DNA of 64,000 bases from a virus. The notes under the pieces were generated by a model. That model was given only the letters and a program-made list of their open reading frames with translations. It did not search any database and was not told where the DNA came from. Position 1 is the first letter of the stretch; each line of letters starts with the position of its first letter. The stretch is taken from the IMG/VR virus record IMGVR_UViG_3300046808_001035. One strand, written 5' to 3'. A program made the translations under genes and the position numbers. Below, piece by piece: positions 5,327 to 26,546 of this stretch.

Positions 5327-5929
5327 TTATCTAGCACCAGCAATACCTAGAGTCTGATTTCCTCCAAATGTATTATTTACAGCTGGAAGATTGAGTATGG
5401 GGCTATCTGCTCCAGGACCGACAGGAGTTCTTTGATACCCTGCTGCCCTTAAGCTTGGACCATAGAAAGTGTGCGCCGCTTGCTCTGCTCCTTGGCCTAA
5501 CGATTCTGCAGCTCCTGAGATTCCCTGTCTTAAAGCACTGCCAGCCCCTGAAAAACCTTGTCTTAAAGCGCTACCAGCTCCTGAAAAGCCTTGCCCCAGT
5601 GCCCTACCTGTCTGTCCAACCGTATTCATAGTATCGCGCACTCCTTGGCCTACAGTATTTACAGCGCCCTCAAGCTTCTGCCCCATATTGGAAGCTAAAT
5701 TATGTGCTCCCTGGTTCAAGGCCCTACCTGCCCCCATAACCATGTCCTTACCTCTATTAAAGGTATTTCCTACAGCTTGTACACCGCTGTCGGCCTTTGC
5801 TCCAAGCCTTTGACCTAAATCTGCAAAAGAAAAAGCTCTTTTGTATAATTCAATAGCCTCAGCTTCATTATAGCCGTATTCACTTGCTCTCTTTACGAAT
5901 CCGTTGATGTATGCTTGTTGTGTGTTCAT
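5327..5929 (-). CDS. Shared-leader family protein (11-aa Gly-rich repeats, QGFSGAGSALR)
   Basis: N-terminus MNTQQAYINGFVKRASEYGYNEAEAIELYKRA. Confidence 0.8.
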   Translation of the reverse strand: MNTQQAYINGFVKRASEYGYNEAEAIELYKRAFSFADLGQRLGAKADSGVQAVGNTFNRGKDMVMGAGRALNQGAHNLASNMGQKLEGAVNTVGQGVRDTMNTVGQTGRALGQGFSGAGSALRQGFSGAGSALRQGISGAAESLGQGAEQAAHTFYGPSLRAAGYQRTPVGPGADSPILNLPAVNNTFGGNQTLGIAGAR

Positions 5930-5973
5930 AATTTCTTCTAGTTTATTCTAAACTCTAGAATATATCAAATATT

Positions 5974-6420
5974 TTATAGCTTTTTAGTCGCCCTTCTTTT
6001 CCCATATGCTTCTAGTATTTTTTCTCGCACAAGCTCATCTTCTTCCTCGATATCTTCCTCGTCTAAACGCAATACGACATAGCCTCCCTTTGTAAGCTTT
6101 TGAGTTTTCTGACTGTCCTTGTATTGAGTCATAGCGTCTCCATGCCAGTATGCTCCATCAGCAAAAATAGCCACATTAGGCTCGATAAAGATGTCAGCGA
6201 TAGTGACACCTAGAATAGGTTTTTGAGTAACAAACTCTATATCTAGAGCCAAGAGCATAGCTTGCAGCTTAAGTTCTATACCTGTCTCTTTTCTGTCTCC
6301 AGAAAGATACCCTTTGATACTTGCGCACCGTTTAGAGCAAGTCTTGCCTTCCCGCATTCTTTCACTTTCACGAGGCCAGAGCTTTCCGCAAGTCTTGCAC
6401 TCGAATTTTTGCTTTTTCAT
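5974..6420 (-). CDS. DUF559/Vsr-like endonuclease with N-terminal Zn finger
   Basis: CxxC...CSxxC followed by E..L...L...Q...ADIFI...AIFADGAYWH...D..K...L...GYVVLRL. Confidence 0.75.
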   Translation of the reverse strand: MKKQKFECKTCGKLWPRESERMREGKTCSKRCASIKGYLSGDRKETGIELKLQAMLLALDIEFVTQKPILGVTIADIFIEPNVAIFADGAYWHGDAMTQYKDSQKTQKLTKGGYVVLRLDEEDIEEEDELVREKILEAYGKRRATKKL

Positions 6421-7778
6421 CAAGCAATCAATTCTTTGATCACATTACCATACACGTCAGTGAGCCTAAAGGGTCTGCCGTTATAGTTATAAATCAAACG
6501 TTCATGATCAAATCCCATTAAACGCAAGATAGTAGCATGAAGATCGTGGATGTGTACGATGTCTTTCATAGATTTAGAGCCCACCTCGTCAGTCTCTCCA
6601 TACCTTTGACCTCCTTTGACTCCTCCTCCGCACATCCATACACTGAAAGCTTTGCCGTTGTGATCTCTACCTGGAGCTCCTGCGCCTCCACCACTGGTAA
6701 CAGTACGTCCAAATTCACCTCCCCACACAATTAATACACTGTCGAATAATCCTCGTTGCTTGAGATCGCCTATAAGTGCGCTAAAAGCCTGATCATATCT
6801 ACGAGCTGTGTTACTCATAGCGTTTTTAATATCACTGTGGTGGTCATACCCCCCAACATTTACCTGAACCACACGCACACCACGCTCTACAAGCCTACGA
6901 GCAATCAGCATCTTTGCTCCTTCCTCAGTTTTTCCGTAGGCTTCTTTAATATTCTCAGGTTCTTTAGATATATCGAACGCGTCGCTAGCCTCTGTCTGCA
7001 TTTTAAACGCTGTCTCAAACGACTCTATACGGCTTTCTAGCTGTTCGTCTTTTTGAAGCTTCAGCATATGCTCAGTACTGAGGCTTTTTGCAAAGTCAAG
7101 TTGGCGTCTTTGACGAGATAACGACGAAACCTCGCTCTGAAGGTTAGCCAAAATCTCACTAGATTGTATATTCTGTCGATAGTTTACATTGCACCCCTGA
7201 TACATGCCTGGAAGAAATGCGCACTGACGAGATTCTGGAGAACTATTCAATGAAATGAACCCAGGCATGTTCTCATTTTGAGTGCCTAACCCATAAACGA
7301 GCCAGCTGCCTAGGCTAGGTTTACTAAGCTGCGCTGAACCTGTATGCATAAGCTTGCTAGCTATTCCATGATCAGGGATGTCTGTCTGCATGCTGTTGAT
7401 GATAGCCAGGTCATCAGCATGCTTACCCAACTCTTTCCATACCTCACTGATATTTAATCCTGATTTTCCAAATCTAGGAAATTCAAACGGTGAAGCTAAC
7501 AGATTACCGTAGTCGTGCTTCACTCCATCTCGCTTCTGCAGTTCAGGCTTATAGTCGAATGTGTCTACATGACTAGGCGCACCGCTAGCAAACAATTGAA
7601 TTATTGCTTTAGCCTTTACTGGGAAGTGTGGAGTCTTAGCAGCCATAGGGCTAGCTGCTTCTAGCGTTGTTGGGTTCAACCCAAACACGCTAGCTAGAGA
7701 CAATCCGCCCAAACCCCAGGCGAATTCGTTTAGGAATTCTCTTCTACTAGAGAACGATGGGTGATTGCCGCAGTTCAT
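6420..7778 (-). CDS. DUF1501 family protein with twin-arginine (Tat) signal
   Basis: SSRREFL Tat motif; AKAIIQLF.SGAPSHVDTFDYKP, ARRLVERGVR.VQ, YDHH, VWGGEFGRT, GRDHN, GGG.KGG..YGETD, HIHDLHATIL, RLTDV.G motifs. Start moved to ATG 7778, one base after the upstream TAA. Confidence 0.9.
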   Translation of the reverse strand: MNCGNHPSFSSRREFLNEFAWGLGGLSLASVFGLNPTTLEAASPMAAKTPHFPVKAKAIIQLFASGAPSHVDTFDYKPELQKRDGVKHDYGNLLASPFEFPRFGKSGLNISEVWKELGKHADDLAIINSMQTDIPDHGIASKLMHTGSAQLSKPSLGSWLVYGLGTQNENMPGFISLNSSPESRQCAFLPGMYQGCNVNYRQNIQSSEILANLQSEVSSLSRQRRQLDFAKSLSTEHMLKLQKDEQLESRIESFETAFKMQTEASDAFDISKEPENIKEAYGKTEEGAKMLIARRLVERGVRVVQVNVGGYDHHSDIKNAMSNTARRYDQAFSALIGDLKQRGLFDSVLIVWGGEFGRTVTSGGGAGAPGRDHNGKAFSVWMCGGGVKGGQRYGETDEVGSKSMKDIVHIHDLHATILRLMGFDHERLIYNYNGRPFRLTDVYGNVIKELIA

Positions 7779-7779
7779 A

Positions 7780-8520
7780 TTATTTAAACCTTTTTGCAAA
7801 AGAGTCGTTAAAAGATTTTTGCCATTCTTTTAAATCAAGATTTTTAACTGTCGCAAAAAAATCGTTTTCTTTTTCGTACTCGGACAAATCTGGTATATTC
7901 TGAATGGGAGGTCTAAAAGATTTTCCCCATTTAGGGTTGTATTTATTCATATGCTCTTTGAGCATCTTATTGTAGAGATACTCTTGAGATGCTGGAAAAT
8001 CTGGTGAGTTTATGTCTTCCGTGTAAGCATCTACAAATTTATTGCCATCATATTTTTGTGGACGCGGTAAGGGCTTATTACGGTACTGGTTTGCGCTTGC
8101 AAGATCTCTGAAATGACCACTTGCCATATCTGTAGAGTCAAAGGCGTCTTGCTTGACAGAAGAATCAGGGGGGTCAAACCCAAACACAGGTTTTTTACCC
8201 ATAATATCTCCAAGCCCTTGCACCCACTTGTCTTTCGGCGTCATGCTAGATAAAGGAGCATTTTTCAAAATACTTAAATCTTTCTTGTTCGGTGTATATC
8301 CTGGTGCACTAGATGCAGGCGCAACACTAGGCGATTGAGTAGTTGTAGCAGAATTAAAGTTCTGCTGCTTAGTTGCACCAGCAGGCCACATAGGATCTTG
8401 CTGAGCTACCACATTTTGAGCGTTAGCTCTCTTCCACAGCGTGATAGCTTCATTTTCACTGTAGCCATAGTCAGCCGCCCTCTTTACAAACCCATTGATG
8501 TATGCTCGCTGTGTGGTCAT
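7780..8520 (-). CDS. Shared-leader family protein
   Basis: N-terminus MTTQRAYINGFVKRAADYGYSENEAITLWKRA. Confidence 0.8.
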   Translation of the reverse strand: MTTQRAYINGFVKRAADYGYSENEAITLWKRANAQNVVAQQDPMWPAGATKQQNFNSATTTQSPSVAPASSAPGYTPNKKDLSILKNAPLSSMTPKDKWVQGLGDIMGKKPVFGFDPPDSSVKQDAFDSTDMASGHFRDLASANQYRNKPLPRPQKYDGNKFVDAYTEDINSPDFPASQEYLYNKMLKEHMNKYNPKWGKSFRPPIQNIPDLSEYEKENDFFATVKNLDLKEWQKSFNDSFAKRFK

Positions 8521-11771: not shown

Positions 11772-11872
11772 AAAGGGGCAGGTTTAACTCTTATTTGATT
11801 ATATCTGATAGCCTAGGTCTCTAATAGCTAAAAAAAAGAATATTTTAAATACTTATTATTTTATTAGTTGAT

Positions 11873-11902
11873 AGCTAAAAAAATGCCGGATTCACCTCCG
11901 GC
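11873..11902 (-). terminator. Terminator with AGCT tail closing the cassette array
   Basis: GCCGGA-GGTGAA-TCCGGC-A-TTTTTTT-AGCT. Confidence 0.8.
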
Positions 11903-11921
11903 TGGTACCTGAATGACAGGC

Positions 11922-12236
11922 TTATTTAAAAACAATCGCCTTTGCGGCGATTATGGCTGCGGGAACTATATCAAATCCCCGAGCTGGTATGCTGATAGCC
12001 TCATCCTCTGAACCACCCGCCAACTCTTTGGCGGTGACACTAAGGAATTTGGTGGCTATTAACGGTAATAGATCCGCACCATCTCTTTTAAAGGAGAGGC
12101 ACACACCCCCCTCTAGGGAAGGGTGTCCGAAAATAATGGTGGGGTTTGTTGCCCCTCTCCACCATTTCCAGACCCACCCTCTGAAGCTGACCATACCGTT
12201 AAGCATGTCCATGATTCTTTTCATTTCAGTATCCAT
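11922..12236 (-). CDS. Hypothetical protein (cassette F)
   Basis: 104 aa ORF lying between a promoter and a terminator. Confidence 0.6.
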   Translation of the reverse strand: MDTEMKRIMDMLNGMVSFRGWVWKWWRGATNPTIIFGHPSLEGGVCLSFKRDGADLLPLIATKFLSVTAKELAGGSEDEAISIPARGFDIVPAAIIAAKAIVFK

Positions 12237-12331
12237 AATTCAAAAACTTAAACCTCTACTAGGTTAAAAACAATTTAGGGTAGAGGCCCACAACTGTTAA
12301 ATCAAAAGCTAGTCAGCCTCTGATTCAATTT

Positions 12332-12407
12332 ACTATACCACTAACTATGCAGTTTATCTGAGGGGGGGGTACCTAATAGCTAAAAAAAGAGAGGGATCGA
12401 GCCTCTC
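12332..12407 (-). promoter_or_regulatory. Cassette junction J6: terminator, T7-AGCT, GGTACC-polyC, promoter
   Basis: GAGAGG-CTCGATC-CCTCTC TTTTTTT AGCT ATTA GGTACCCCCCCC T CAGATA-N14-TGGTATAGT. Confidence 0.8.
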
Positions 12408-12458
12408 TGGACTATAGCTAGTCAGCCTAACCACTCTACCGCAGGTTACGCGCTTTTG

Positions 12459-12686
12459 TTAATCTTCTTCCTTGTGTAGGTCCTCATCAAGGACATACAC
12501 ATTGATTCCTGGGCTCAGGGTGTCGTCGTTCCAGAAGGTTTTTCCTTCCAGATCGATACACATCCCACCAGGGTGGGAGAACTCCCAATCCGGAATAACG
12601 ACTCGAGAATGGTCGTCATTATACAACACTAATTCTGGCTCCTCTACAGAGGCCGCAAAATCAGGCCAATTTAATACTAAGTGCAT
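12459..12686 (-). CDS. Small acidic hypothetical protein (cassette E)
   Basis: 75 aa ORF ending shortly before the J6 terminator. Confidence 0.55.
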   Translation of the reverse strand: MHLVLNWPDFAASVEEPELVLYNDDHSRVVIPDWEFSHPGGMCIDLEGKTFWNDDTLSPGINVYVLDEDLHKEED

Positions 12687-12902
12687 AACTGAACTGATCT
12701 ATACCTTTTCTAAGGGCAGTACGACTAGGGCGATCAATCCTAGAAGCGCTTAATAAACACTGTATCTTCACATGAAGATAGGGGATAGAGCGCTTCGAAT
12801 CACCCTATCCCCTATGACTTGTACCATGTACTTGTCTTCAGTGCCTTTCGGCGGAAATTGTGTAAGTTTATTTATAGTCGAGAGCTCACTTCGACTAGCT
12901 GA

Positions 12903-13067
12903 CTAAGCATTGAAACCAGAAGTGACTACTACGGTTTCCTCTTCTTCTACCTCTTCTGTCAGTTCCCAAGGATCTACGTCACTGAATGACGTAGTGTCCC
13001 AAATATTGACAGCTGCCATACCGTTAACAGTCAAAACCAACATAAGGCTAAGGGCTAATGTCTTCAT
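12903..13067 (-). CDS. Small secreted peptide with VDPWE motif (cassette E)
   Basis: MKTLALSLMLVLTVNGMA signal peptide then acidic mature part containing DVDPWE; start set at ATG 13067, downstream of the promoter. Confidence 0.7.
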   Translation of the reverse strand: MKTLALSLMLVLTVNGMAAVNIWDTTSFSDVDPWELTEEVEEEETVVVTSGFNA

Positions 13068-13075
13068 AGTACCAT

Positions 13076-13170
13076 AATATACCATAACCGTGTTGTTTTA
13101 TCTATGGGGGGTGGGGAGGGGTACCCAAGAGCTAAAAAAAGAGTCTTACTCCCCTCAGAGGGGACGCTCT
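13076..13170 (-). promoter_or_regulatory. Cassette junction J5
   Basis: Hairpin (TCCCCTC/GAGGGGA core), TTTTTTT AGCT CTTG GGTACCCCTCCCCACCCCCC A TAGATA-N14-TGGTATATT. Confidence 0.8.
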
Positions 13171-13180
13171 TTAAATTCAG

Positions 13181-13384
13181 CTAGCGCATTCCAGCTTCTT
13201 GTTGCTGGATGATAACGAAGGCTACCCTTGCTATTCCAAGATTAGTCTCTCGGAAATCTCTGAGCTCCCAACCACGGATTTTTTCGTGGTTGCTTTTAGG
13301 TTCTAGAGCTTTTGCTCTGAGTCTCGCTATTTCTATATCTGCCTTCTCAAGCAGATCTTTTTTCGGTTTTGTTTTTGTGGGCAT
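13181..13384 (-). CDS. Hypothetical protein (cassette D)
   Basis: 67 aa ORF ending at the J5 terminator. Confidence 0.55.
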   Translation of the reverse strand: MPTKTKPKKDLLEKADIEIARLRAKALEPKSNHEKIRGWELRDFRETNLGIARVAFVIIQQQEAGMR

Positions 13385-13433
13385 AAAAAGTGTGGAATAT
13401 TATTTAAGGTCGTTATCCACATCGACCAGCAGA

Positions 13434-13784
13434 CTAGGCTAGCACGCTCTTTTTGAGTCGATACTTATCAGCCAATTCAGCCAATGCATCTCTCCAGAGT
13501 TTTACGACGAGGTCATCATGGATCTCTTGCAGTTCTCTGATCAGCTTGAGATGCTTCTTGGGGGCATAGTTCGTTTCAACTAGATCTCTCCAAGTTTTCA
13601 TCTCAATTTTGCGGTCATACTCATCATCCGCAATGAGACAACCTGCTGCACATCGAAGCGGACCATGATGATATCTGCATGTCACCTGTGTGGCGCTTCG
13701 CACGTTTTGTTCGAGCAGGTGCTTTGCTACCTGATCGAAGACTTGCTGCCTCGTGCTCTTATTGAGTGTTTTCAGTGTGATCAT
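13434..13784 (-). CDS. MITL/CAAGCLI paralogue family member (cassette D)
   Basis: Start set at MITLKTL; QVFDQVAKHLL..C.Y...LRCAAGCLIADDEY...LIRELQEIHD shared with four other ORFs. Confidence 0.75.
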   Translation of the reverse strand: MITLKTLNKSTRQQVFDQVAKHLLEQNVRSATQVTCRYHHGPLRCAAGCLIADDEYDRKIEMKTWRDLVETNYAPKKHLKLIRELQEIHDDLVVKLWRDALAELADKYRLKKSVLA

Positions 13785-14119
13785 AGATATCCGTGGGTTT
13801 CGAACTTTCCATTTTCTTTTTCTAGCAGTATTTGGAAATTCGTTTTCTCGAATTTGCATATGAGGTTGTGTAGAACCTCTATATGCTTTTTGAATATGAA
13901 AACCCCGATTACTGTCTCTCCATCGAGGTTCGGCTTCAGCTCTTCTAGCGTAGCCTGTAGGGGTTTTACCCTACTATCAATAACCATACCCACAACCGGA
14001 GTACAGTCTCGCAGTTTTGGAAAAGCTGCGGCAAGATGACTATGAGATATCTTCTCGATATCTTCACCACTCTTGTTGTCTTTTGTGGGGACTACCACAA
14101 TCGCCGTTTTAATCTTCAT
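13781..14119 (-). CDS. Hypothetical protein (cassette D)
   Basis: 112 aa; ATGA overlaps with both neighbours. Confidence 0.6.
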   Translation of the reverse strand: MKIKTAIVVVPTKDNKSGEDIEKISHSHLAAAFPKLRDCTPVVGMVIDSRVKPLQATLEELKPNLDGETVIGVFIFKKHIEVLHNLICKFEKTNFQILLEKENGKFETHGYL

Positions 14120-14358
14120 AGCCAGTGTCTGTTTCTGATTAATTCGATCATAGCGTTTTTGTTGCTGACAGGCCCAACAGCACCAATATTTGGGCTCGTG
14201 ATTTTCTCACGGCGGCCATACTGCTTCGCTAAAAGCGTACTCATTTTTTTTCTGACATCCTCAAGATTGAGGTCCCTCACCATGGACCTCTTCTCTCTTG
14301 TTAGTTTTACCTCCTCTTTAACGAGTTGGAGGAACTCGCTGTTTTCAGTTTTTTTCAT
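14116..14358 (-). CDS. Hypothetical protein (cassette D)
   Basis: 80 aa; first gene after the J4 promoter. Confidence 0.6.
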   Translation of the reverse strand: MKKTENSEFLQLVKEEVKLTREKRSMVRDLNLEDVRKKMSTLLAKQYGRREKITSPNIGAVGPVSNKNAMIELIRNRHWL

Positions 14359-14402
14359 TTTGGTTTAGGGTTAAGCTAGAGGCTAAATTTCTCTAGCAAT
14401 AT

Positions 14403-14464
14403 ATTATACCAAAAAAAGAGCCTAAAATCTGATAGCTAAAAAAAGAGAGGGATTGAACCTACTC
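14403..14464 (-). promoter_or_regulatory. Cassette junction J4 (lacks GGTACC-polyC)
   Basis: GAGTAGG-TTCAATC-CCTCTC TTTTTTT AGCT AT CAGATT-N14-TGGTATAAT. Confidence 0.8.
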
Positions 14465-14481
14465 TTTTTACTGTCTCAGGA

Positions 14482-14613
14482 CTAACGCACAAGGCGCTTG
14501 AGTCCTGAAACTCCAATCAGGATGAACATCACCGGCACGAGTACAGGTGACAGTTCAATCAGAAGGGTGACCACACAGGCAACCCACAATACTAAGGCTA
14601 GAATTTTAACCAT
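14482..14613 (-). CDS. 43-aa hydrophobic membrane peptide (cassette C)
   Basis: Manual translation MVKILALVLWVACVVTLLIELSPVLVPVMFILIGVSGLKRLVR; below the ORF-track cutoff. Confidence 0.55.
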   Translation of the reverse strand: MVKILALVLWVACVVTLLIELSPVLVPVMFILIGVSGLKRLVR

Positions 14614-14674
14614 AGGATTAGTGCTGTTAATTTTAACAGAACGCTCACAACAATCACTGAGAGAAACATGTTTC

Positions 14675-14986
14675 TCATTTCTTTAGAGAGTTTATTTTCA
14701 CTATTACTTCTTCTGTCAACTTATTTACTGCATTGCTCGCCTCCTTCAAGGCTTTGTCAAACCTGACCTTGATTGCTTGCTCAAGATCAGGTTCCTCACG
14801 CATTTTTGCTATAACAGCTTTTGCTGCCTGAAGCTCTGCGTGAACACGAAGAATTTCTTCATCCTTCGATACACCTTCCGCCTCCATCTTACTCAGCAGA
14901 AGCCGAATCTCTTCGGCTGGTGAGCTCGCGTTCGCAAAGAAACTGAAAGTGATAACTGCCAACACTGCAATGATGAGTTTTTTCAT
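14675..14986 (-). CDS. Secreted coiled-coil protein (cassette C)
   Basis: Signal peptide MKKLIIAVLAVITFSFFANA, helical body. Confidence 0.7.
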   Translation of the reverse strand: MKKLIIAVLAVITFSFFANASSPAEEIRLLLSKMEAEGVSKDEEILRVHAELQAAKAVIAKMREEPDLEQAIKVRFDKALKEASNAVNKLTEEVIVKINSLKK

Positions 14987-15048
14987 GGTTTGGTTTGGTT
15001 AACTGAAGAATCTGTGTAGCTGAATGCTACTAGTTCCAGATTCAAAGT

Positions 15049-15125
15049 ATTATCCCACGAATATCTTATTTTTAACAGGGGGGGTACCCAGGAGCTAAAA
15101 AAAGAGAGGGATTGAACCTTTCTTT
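15049..15125 (-). promoter_or_regulatory. Cassette junction J3
   Basis: GAAAGG-TTCAATC-CCTCTC TTTTTTT AGCT CCTG GGTACCCCCCC TGTTAA-N14-TGGGATAAT. Confidence 0.8.
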
Positions 15126-15129
15126 TATA

Positions 15130-15303
15130 CTATGCACCGACACTTCCGTTTTCAGCCGGATGAGTACCGGCATCAAACGCAGGGGACTCATGCACGTCTT
15201 CCCACGGATCCACTGGGGACCATGGAAGTGAGGATTCGATTACGGTGAACGCATCAGCATTCACCGCAGCCAATACAATAATTAACAATACAAGTTTTTT
15301 CAT
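15130..15303 (-). CDS. Small secreted peptide with VDPWE motif (cassette B)
   Basis: Manual translation MKKLVLLIIVLAAVNADAFTVIESSLPWSPVDPWEDVHESPAFDAGTHPAENGSVGA (57 aa); not in the ORF track. Confidence 0.75.
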   Translation of the reverse strand: MKKLVLLIIVLAAVNADAFTVIESSLPWSPVDPWEDVHESPAFDAGTHPAENGSVGA

Positions 15304-15329
15304 AATATCTAATAGTTCCTACTTAAAGC

Positions 15330-15378
15330 ATTATCCCAGAATAACCTTATTTTAACTGTGGGGGGGAGGGGCTAAAAA
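15330..15378 (-). promoter_or_regulatory. Cassette junction J2 (collapsed variant)
   Basis: TTTTTT AGC CCCTCCCCCCC A CAGTTA-N14-TGGGATAAT. Confidence 0.7.
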
Positions 15379-15512
15379 ATTCAATATTGCTCCACCACAT
15401 TATATGTTGGTGCATTGCATTATTACAATGAATTGTACTAGTGCCTCTCGAGCGCTCGATCTGTCTGACTGACTCTCATCAATCATTCTGACTCGTCGTA
15501 ACGTTTCAAAGT

Positions 15513-15593
15513 ATTATATCAGATATTATCGGATATCCCTAGGGGGGGGTACCTGAGAGCTAAAAAAAGGGAGAGCTGTGAAGCCCTCCCTTT
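15513..15593 (-). promoter_or_regulatory. Cassette junction J1
   Basis: GGGAGGGC-TTCACA-GCTCTCCC TTTTTTT AGCT CTCA GGTACCCCCCCC TAGGGA-N14-TGATATAAT. Confidence 0.8.
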
Positions 15594-15616
15594 CTTATAC
15601 TAACTATTGACCCAGG

Positions 15617-15811: not shown

Positions 15812-15881
15812 AATACTGATATTTACTGCGTTACTGAAATGGTGCACCAGGCAGGACTCGAACCTGCGACCAACCACTTAG

Positions 15882-16480
15882 CTTCCTACTCTATATTACT
15901 ATAGCCAACTCATGTTGTTGTAGGCTGGACTATGTCTTCACCTTTACAGGTGGAATGCGTATAGTCTCTACGGAACCCCTGTGACTGGGTTTCCTCGGCG
16001 TTGTCCATAAACCTAGTATAGACTTCTTGGATATTCGCCGAAATAGCATTCTCCACTTCTACGGTTTTTACACCCAACTGTATATTTCTAGAGAGCTTTC
16101 CTCTGCATGCTTTCGAACAACAAGTATACTTGCCGTTTTTACTCAGATGTGTTTGGTTGTGTACTCTATCAAATATAACTCCACAATTTGGACATTTTAG
16201 TTTTACCCATTTACGTCCATGCTCGTGTGCGTGTAAGGTAGCGTGCTCATTTAAAATCATAACTTCTAGATTCTCTATACGATTATCTTTTTTATTATGG
16301 TTTTTATGATGCACAACTTCCGATTTATCGAGAATACGGTTCAGGTGATTTTCAACTACGATGCGATGCTCTAGCACATATCCATGCTTGGTAGCATTAG
16401 GATGTGCTTTAACTTTCATATAGTTGTATTCTCCTTTACTGATCACTTTCTCGATTTTCCACATAGAAGGCTCCTAACTG
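15882..16480 (-). mobile_element. Group I intron (599 nt) in the tRNA-Arg anticodon
   Basis: U before the 5' splice site and terminal G; P1 (CUU|C with GGAG), P10 (CUAA/UUAG), P3 GAAUGC/GCAUUC, P4 UCGGCG/CGCCGA, P7 GACUA/UAGUC, P8 CACCU-GUAA-AGGUG; R GUAGAGACUA and S AAGACAUAGUCC elements. Confidence 0.9.
15910..16464 (-). CDS. Intron-encoded HNH homing endonuclease
   Basis: HGYVLEHRIVVE...EVVHHKNHNKKDNRIENLEV...H plus CxxC...CSxxC finger; AGGAG 6 nt upstream of ATG. Confidence 0.9.
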   Translation of the reverse strand: MWKIEKVISKGEYNYMKVKAHPNATKHGYVLEHRIVVENHLNRILDKSEVVHHKNHNKKDNRIENLEVMILNEHATLHAHEHGRKWVKLKCPNCGVIFDRVHNQTHLSKNGKYTCCSKACRGKLSRNIQLGVKTVEVENAISANIQEVYTRFMDNAEETQSQGFRRDYTHSTCKGEDIVQPTTT

Positions 16481-16517
16481 AAGGCAGTTGCTCTATCCAA
16501 CTGAGCTACTGGTGCGT

Positions 16518-26477: not shown

Positions 26478-26501
26478 GTACTCAATTATACCTATTCTAA
26501 T

Positions 26502-26546
26502 AGCTAAAAAAAAGGAAAAACCCCCGTTAGGAGGAGTTTCCTTTTT
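26502..26546 (-). terminator. Terminator with AGCT tail
   Basis: GGAAACTCCTCC-TAAC-GGGGGTTTTTCC TTTTTTTT AGCTATTAG. Confidence 0.75.

What the first reader, a model, noticed from the sequence alone, without database searches (positions are those of the whole stretch)
11820..15600. Array of six autonomous gene cassettes joined by a conserved terminator-AGCT-GGTACC-polyC-promoter junction
Seen: on the minus strand the same junction recurs at 15513-15593, 15330-15378, 15049-15125, 14403-14464, 13076-13170 and 12332-12407, with a closing terminator at 11873-11902. Each has a T6-7 run and AGC(T), with an adjacent hairpin in five. Four of six then carry 4 variable nt, the palindrome GGTACC and a C-run placed directly against a promoter. 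Three terminators are near-identical (plus strand AGCTAAAAAAAGAGAGGGAT[TC]GA[AG]CCT). Cargo between junctions is unrelated and spans about 0.13-1.2 kb: secreted peptides, membrane peptides, structured RNA, and a paralogue of a family otherwise found 21-37 kb away. Known: mobile promoter-stem-loop cassettes shuffle genes in T4-type phages, and integrons use repeated attC sites. Inference: the AGCT-N4-GGTACC-Cn core is not needed for termination or for -35/-10 recognition, so it may be a recombination or protein-binding site of a phage gene-capture platform. No recombinase is visible in this window.
Basis: partly seen in the sequence, partly recalled or inferred. Interest (0 to 1): 0.85.

Follow-up and report, generated by a model that had tools for sequence, protein, structure and literature searches.

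The report
Phage terminator-promoter gene-swap junctions
A large uncultured phage keeps six small accessory gene units fenced by repeated stop-and-start signals at which relatives swap genes, a known arrangement; what is new is a 9-base tail behind the stop signals that is conserved across a deep group of phages carrying their own RNA polymerase.

Summary
The six junctions are real and far above chance. Relatives (about 190-200 kb phages, 17 arrays compared) carry the same array at the same locus. Unit number and cargo differ, and homology mostly breaks at the junctions. The junction is not one recombination core but two abutting modules. (1) A terminator hairpin plus T7 with a 9-nt tail, AGCTATCAG, which also ends fixed terminators elsewhere in these genomes. 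(2) An extended -10 promoter with a C-run 19-26 nt upstream. GGTACC is incidental: 13 of 44 junctions have it, and orthologues of J5 and J6 lack it. No tyrosine, serine or IS110 recombinase was found in near-complete relatives; all encode a RecA/UvsX-like protein. The array therefore works like T4 PeSL cassettes, and the scan has noted many such arrays on other DNA. The new element is the tail: 103 viral hits against 9 for a control pattern, behind a hairpin in 71 of 80 contexts, absent from 37 sampled PVC host terminators, enriched at terminators that abut a promoter, and found in a deep phage clade encoding its own multi-subunit RNA polymerase. Its function is untested.

The parts
15513..15596 (-). 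J1: terminator hairpin (15569-15596), T7 (15562-15568), AGCT tail, GGTACC (15548-15553), C8 (15542-15549), -10 box (15513-15518)
   Evidence: orthologue in L040
15380..15512 (-). Slot 1: 130-nt unit with a 28-codon ORF (15400-15486); peptide or RNA undecided
   Evidence: 89% identical in L040; fold z -1.5
15330..15379 (-). J2: T6-AGC, C-runs (15360-15371), -10 box (15330-15335); no convincing hairpin
   Evidence: homology to L040 ends at the T-run
15130..15303 (-). Slot 2: 57-aa peptide with hydrophobic N-terminus, paralogue of the slot-5 peptide
15049..15125 (-). J3: hairpin with tRNA T-loop-like loop, T7-AGCT, GGTACC (15083-15088), C7, -10 box (15049-15054)
14482..14986 (-). Slot 3: 103-aa protein with signal-peptide-like start (14675-14986) and 43-aa membrane peptide (14482-14613); other cargo in L040
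14403..14469 (-). J4: hairpin, T7, full AGCTATCAG tail (14429-14437), no C-run, no GGTACC, -10 box (14403-14408)
13181..14358 (-). Slot 4: four ORFs (80, 112, 116 and 67 aa); the 116-aa ORF is phrog_17693, with 4 paralogues at 34.9-50.5 kb
   Evidence: L762/L763 lack the last two genes
13076..13172 (-). J5: hairpin, T7-AGCT, GGTACC (13120-13125), three C-runs (13106-13121), -10 box (13076-13081)
   Evidence: orthologues lack GGTACC
12459..13085 (-). Slot 5: peptide of about 55-60 aa (12903-13085), structured non-coding stretch (12690-12900), 75-aa ORF (12459-12686)
12332..12408 (-). J6: hairpin, T7-AGCT, GGTACC (12368-12373), C8 (12362-12369), -10 box (12332-12337)
11922..12236 (-). Slot 6: 104-aa ORF without a family match
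11798..11902 (-). Closing boundary: terminator (11877-11902) with tail, second T8 plus tail (11821-11837), and a TATAAT box (11798-11803) ahead of the KTSC/DUF6321 gene (starts 11771)
26485..26540 (-). Fixed terminator outside the array with the same tail, followed by a TATAAT box; conserved in four relatives

Best explanation
A hyperplastic accessory-gene region of an Arash-related, RNA-polymerase-encoding phage, built like a PeSL array. Each junction is a terminator (hairpin, U7, 9-nt tail) placed against an early promoter (C-tract, weak -35, extended -10). Shown by comparison: units are gained, lost, duplicated and replaced; most homology boundaries fall in the T7-AGC tail, the TA-Cn tract or the leader; promoter modules are more alike within a genome than between genomes. 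Inferred: exchange is by homologous or short-homology recombination between repeated junctions, using the phage RecA/UvsX-like protein, and selection keeps swaps that leave promoter and terminator whole. Inferred: the tail is a transcription signal at terminator-to-promoter boundaries (tighter termination, or a site for a protein or polymerase hand-over), and only secondarily a crossover point. GGTACC arises where the tail meets the GTA-Cn start of the promoter module in some lineages.
For: Same locus holds arrays of differing unit number (up to seven) and cargo in 17 genomes. Window against L040: J1, J2 tail, J3 and J4 are orthologous while slots 2 and 3 differ. L762/L763 homology starts at the J5 hairpin. 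At a second hotspot in relatives with 95-97% identical left flanks, homology ends in the C-run and resumes at the T-run. Three L068 units share about 104 nt from T7 to the start codon ahead of different ORFs. Within-genome module identity 0.51 against 0.43, permutation p = 2e-4. C-run to -10 distance 19-26 nt (sd 1.3) against T-run to -10 29-86 nt (sd 9.4). Core promoter occurs genome-wide. RecA-like gene in 5 of 5 relatives; no site-specific recombinase. Tail terminators are followed by a -10 box in 27 of 33 cases against 5 of 24.
Against: The shared stretches at two crossover points are only 10-13 bp, short for a RecA-type enzyme. Some changes lie inside cassettes, away from junctions. The same phage in several samples shows an identical array, so no ongoing shuffling was seen. 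No transcript, read or mini-circle data. The window's own genome is not held, so its recombinase content is inferred from relatives. The 27/33 count includes orthologous sites that are not independent.
Confidence: 0.68

Rival explanations
1. Dedicated site-specific gene capture (integron-like): an unrecognised recombinase or nickase acts on T7-AGCT or TA-Cn.
For: About half of roughly 10 independent boundaries fall in these two short motifs, and one more at a TAGCT in a leader. The tail is conserved over a deep clade and lies just behind recombinase-like genes in some planctomycete elements.
Against: No PF00589, PF00239, PF07508 or PF01548 match in four near-complete genomes, with controls ringing. 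The tail sits at fixed terminators that show no cargo turnover. GGTACC is not conserved. Every unit has its own promoter.
Confidence: 0.1
2. Moron accretion: breakpoints arise by non-homologous events anywhere; selection alone keeps those at unit boundaries, and junction likeness comes from tandem duplication.
For: Insertions inside slot 4 and slot 5; tandem paralogous units in G003 and in the window. Selection against broken genes predicts non-coding breakpoints under any mechanism.
Against: Precise cassette indels between 10-13 bp direct repeats; identical junction-to-start modules ahead of unrelated ORFs; terminators and one cargo gene are shared between two hotspots and between genomes.
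Confidence: 0.17
3. On the tail only: it is a signal read by the phage's own multi-subunit RNA polymerase or one of its factors, not by host machinery.
For: 24 of 27 large contigs found by the tail alone encode the polymerase (13 of 13 that are at least 90% complete); 0 of 7 controls have either. The tail often precedes late-type TATAAT boxes at 11 or 22 nt, one helical turn apart.
Against: These phages are one clade, so co-occurrence may be plain descent. Arash and Vibrio phage D69 have the same polymerase type and no tailed terminators. The tail also occurs behind hairpins in planctomycete mobile-element contexts. Array promoters look like host sigma-70 extended -10 sites.
Confidence: 0.3

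Closest known systems
PeSL/PmSL cassettes of T4-type phages (Arbiol 2010, PMC2839356; Comeau 2014, PMC4122927)
   Same: Composite stem-loop terminator plus sigma-70-like promoter between small ORFans in hyperplastic regions; insertions, deletions and replacements at the elements; no dedicated recombinase found.
   Different: [quoted passage not shown]
Integrons (IntI, attC arrays)
   Same: Array of unrelated cassettes with repeated boundaries.
   Different: No tyrosine recombinase; hairpins differ between junctions and look like terminators; each unit has its own promoter.
Phage morons (Hendrix 2000, as described in PMC2839356)
   Same: Genes with their own promoter and terminator.
   Different: Here the flanks are conserved repeats and hold most breakpoints.
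Salmonella phage Arash (OQ632216) and Vibrio phages D69/D148/D181
   Same: Closest cultured relatives: portal, terminase, capsid and both polymerase subunits at 22-32% identity.
   Different: Their terminators lack the tail.

Membership tests
PeSL | Sigma-70-like early promoter in the element | tested here: met
   Extended -10 consensus in 43 of 44 junctions, weak -35; predicted only
PeSL | Adjacent stem-loop terminator | tested here: met
   5 of 6 window junctions fold; activity not measured
PeSL | AT-rich region upstream of -35 | tested here: not met
   C-run in 40 of 44 junctions
PeSL | Shine-Dalgarno before the start codon | tested here: inconclusive
   Leaders look A/C-rich without SD by inspection; not scored
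PeSL | Located in hyperplastic regions, with indels and replacements at the elements | tested here: met
PeSL | Mini-circles by recombination between elements | not testable with these tools
PeSL | T4-type phage background | tested here: not met
   Structural genes match phage Arash; own RNA polymerase; no Gp23 match, though that control did not ring
Integron | IntI tyrosine recombinase | tested here: not met
   0 of 7 related records, 4 near-complete
Integron | Promoterless cassettes read from one promoter | tested here: not met
   Each unit has its own -10 box
Integron | attC hairpin with R and L boxes | tested here: inconclusive
   Hairpins are unrelated and end in U-tracts; no attC model was run
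Moron | Own promoter and terminator | tested here: met
Moron | No conserved flanking sequence | tested here: not met

The most novel reading that the evidence does not exclude
The tail AGCTATCAG is an undescribed, sequence-specific signal downstream of intrinsic terminators, used by a deep clade of polymerase-encoding phages and by planctomycete mobile elements but not by ordinary host terminators. It is read by a protein or a polymerase to couple termination to initiation at the next promoter, and it doubles as the preferred crossover point for cassette exchange.
Probability: 0.3. Interest if true: 0.75.

Novelty: new variant of a known kind. Interest (0 to 1): 0.5.

Why it matters
The array extends PeSL-type gene shuffling to an uncultured, non-T4 phage clade and gives base-level crossover points, which bears on the question left open in PMC2839356 of whether such exchange needs a dedicated protein. 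The tail matters more: intrinsic terminators are usually defined by hairpin and U-tract alone (own knowledge), yet here nine downstream bases are kept across phages of 31-61% GC whose polymerases are about 36% identical. That gives a simple mutational test of how downstream DNA controls termination or re-initiation, and a marker for this phage clade.

Tried and rejected
No whole genome is held for the window. GGTACC as an att core: rejected. Tail as the -35 box: the 17-nt spacing holds at closing junctions but not in arrays or at the 26513 site. Tail as the general PVC terminator consensus: rejected; 0 of 37 sampled PVC and 0 of 86 mixed-phylum hairpin terminators begin with AGC, and exact matches occur in 8 of 151 Planctomycetota, 4 of 151 Verrucomicrobiota and 6 of 101 Bacteroidota genomes, with controls of 4, 4 and 3 sites, so these samples show at most weak enrichment. 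AGCT over-representation: none, observed/expected about 1.0. Strain variation in the same phage: none over the array in 10 loci from several samples, one substitution aside. Rfam, Pfam, PHROGs and the Atlas gave no function for the cargo. Host assignment through DUF1501 failed. Literature searches found no description of the tail. One phmmer script timed out; two family scans failed on coordinates.
Full report
OBSERVATION. The window is part of a large phage genome; no whole genome is held. The full pattern T6+AGCT-N4-GGTACC-Cn occurs four times, never in 1000 shuffles and never in the rest of the window. Five junctions have a foldable hairpin; J2 does not. An eighth T8-plus-tail site at 11821-11837 precedes a TATAAT box and the KTSC/DUF6321 gene. 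The cargo has almost no family matches. The 116-aa slot-4 protein has four paralogues 21-37 kb away.

RELATIVES. Searches with the junction and with both flanking genes returned related phages of about 185-205 kb, four of them near-complete. The same locus holds arrays of one to seven units with different cargo. In the closest relative, L040 (92% identity in the upstream gene), J1, the J2 T-run, J3 and J4 are orthologous and in order, while slots 2 and 3 hold other genes; homology stops and restarts at the junctions. L762 and L763 share J5 and the slot-5 peptide, with homology starting at the J5 hairpin. In L068, three units share about 104 nt from the T-run to the start codon ahead of different ORFs, and L054 shows a similar shared leader. 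Promoter modules are more alike within than between genomes (0.51 against 0.43, p = 2e-4). A second hotspot, in five relatives with 95-97% identical left flanks, has five different contents; homology ends in the C-run on the left and resumes at the T-run on the right. Not every change is at a junction: two genes in slot 4 and the second gene of slot 5 differ inside cassettes. The same phage in several samples has an identical array.

ANATOMY. Among 44 internal junctions from 17 genomes, 42 have AGC after the T-run, 40 have a C-run and 13 have GGTACC. Orthologues of J5 and J6 lack GGTACC. The C-run ends 19-26 nt before the -10 box (sd 1.3), whereas the T-run ends 29-86 nt before it (sd 9.4), so the C-run belongs to the promoter. 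The core promoter, an extended -10 site, occurs throughout these genomes; the C-run version is almost confined to the hotspots and sometimes has no terminator before it. The other half is a terminator tail, consensus AGCTATCAG. It begins 29 of 49 non-coding hairpin-T7 sites in five genomes, including fixed sites such as window 26513 and its orthologues. Outside the main array, 10 of 26 such terminators carry it, against 52 of 1240 coding T-runs (p = 1e-7). GGTACC appears where the tail abuts the GTA-Cn start of the promoter module.

ENZYMES. Tyrosine, small and large serine, and IS110 recombinase families gave no match in the near-complete relatives, with controls ringing. All five tested encode a RecA-family protein of about 405 aa. 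They also encode a multi-subunit-type RNA polymerase. The nearest cultured phages are Salmonella phage Arash and three Vibrio phages. The host is unknown; PVC bacteria are a weak inference from where the tail occurs.

THE TAIL BEYOND THIS PHAGE. The 17-mer C-T7-tail occurs in 103 IMG/VR stretches against 9 for a same-composition control, behind a hairpin in 71 of 80 unique contexts against 0 of 8. Of 27 large contigs found by the tail alone, 24 encode the polymerase, including 13 of 13 near-complete ones; 7 controls have neither. These phages are one clade (GC 31-61%, polymerases 35-80% identical), so this is not independent evidence of co-evolution, and Arash and D69 lack tailed terminators. 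In bacterial genomes the motif is rare. About a third of the 80 hits listed were Planctomycetota, against 2 of 80 for the control, mostly in mobile-element-like contexts, but phylum samples show at most weak enrichment. Ordinary PVC terminators lack it (0 of 37). In the phages, tailed terminators are followed by a -10 box within 70 nt in 27 of 33 cases against 5 of 24 (orthologues included). I found no paper describing it.

MECHANISM. Most likely (0.68) the junctions insulate each unit transcriptionally, and their repetition supplies homology for RecA/UvsX-type or short-homology exchange, with selection keeping swaps that leave signals intact. Turnover and breakpoint positions are shown; transcription, the enzyme and any circular intermediate are inferred. 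A dedicated site-specific system (0.1) lacks an enzyme and a conserved core. Pure moron accretion (0.17) explains the intra-cassette changes but not the precise indels between short repeats. For the tail, a transcriptional role at terminator-promoter boundaries fits best; whether host or phage machinery reads it is open.

COMPARISON AND VERDICT. The array works like PeSLs (PMC2839356, PMC4122927) but is an analogue, not a member: different phage group, a C-tract in place of the AT-rich upstream region, and no mini-circle evidence. It is not an integron. The scan has noted many PeSL-like arrays on other DNA (187 notes match the words) and none on look-alike sequence; two of those notes prompted the polymerase search. 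New variant of a known kind; interest 0.5, carried mainly by the conserved terminator tail and the mapped crossover points.

Noticed in passing
window 15837-16510 (-): A tRNA (Arg-UCU by comparison with the intron-less copy in L040) is split at the anticodon by a group I intron that carries an HNH gene; ARAGORN misses it.
   Followed up: partly
window 12690-12900 (-): Multi-hairpin non-coding stretch, about 77% identical to a stretch in the second hotspot of G003 and conserved in L762; no Rfam match.
   Followed up: partly
window J3, J4, J6; L047, L054, L056, L059: Many terminator loops resemble the tRNA T-loop; possibly tRNA-derived.
   Followed up: no
L086:13857-16883 (G002) and orthologues: About 1000-aa polymerase ORF with both PF00562 and PF00623 matches in all near-complete relatives; 31% identical to the Arash enzyme.
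   Followed up: partly
G003 5900-7100; G004 96700-97400; L145, L170, L187: Second cassette hotspot with the same junction type and five different contents.
   Followed up: yes
L302:3693-3749 (Phormidium tenue): Bidirectional terminator with the same tail on both sides.
   Followed up: no
L272, L314, L251, L300, L329: In several bacteria the tail is the first unit of degenerate 7-base tandem repeats.
   Followed up: no
L044, L042, L041 junctions: Four or more C-tracts in a row, able in principle to form a G-quadruplex on the other strand; most junctions have only one or two.
   Followed up: no
window 6420-7799 (-): DUF1501 gene; homologues at 75-89% identity, many on contigs of 100-250 kb; organism unresolved.
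   Followed up: partly
L258, L299, L347, L271, L295: Planctomycete chromosomal copies of the tailed terminator lie behind genes that look like recombinases, PD-(D/E)XK nucleases and ThiF proteins by inspection, i.e. mobile-element contexts.
   Followed up: partly
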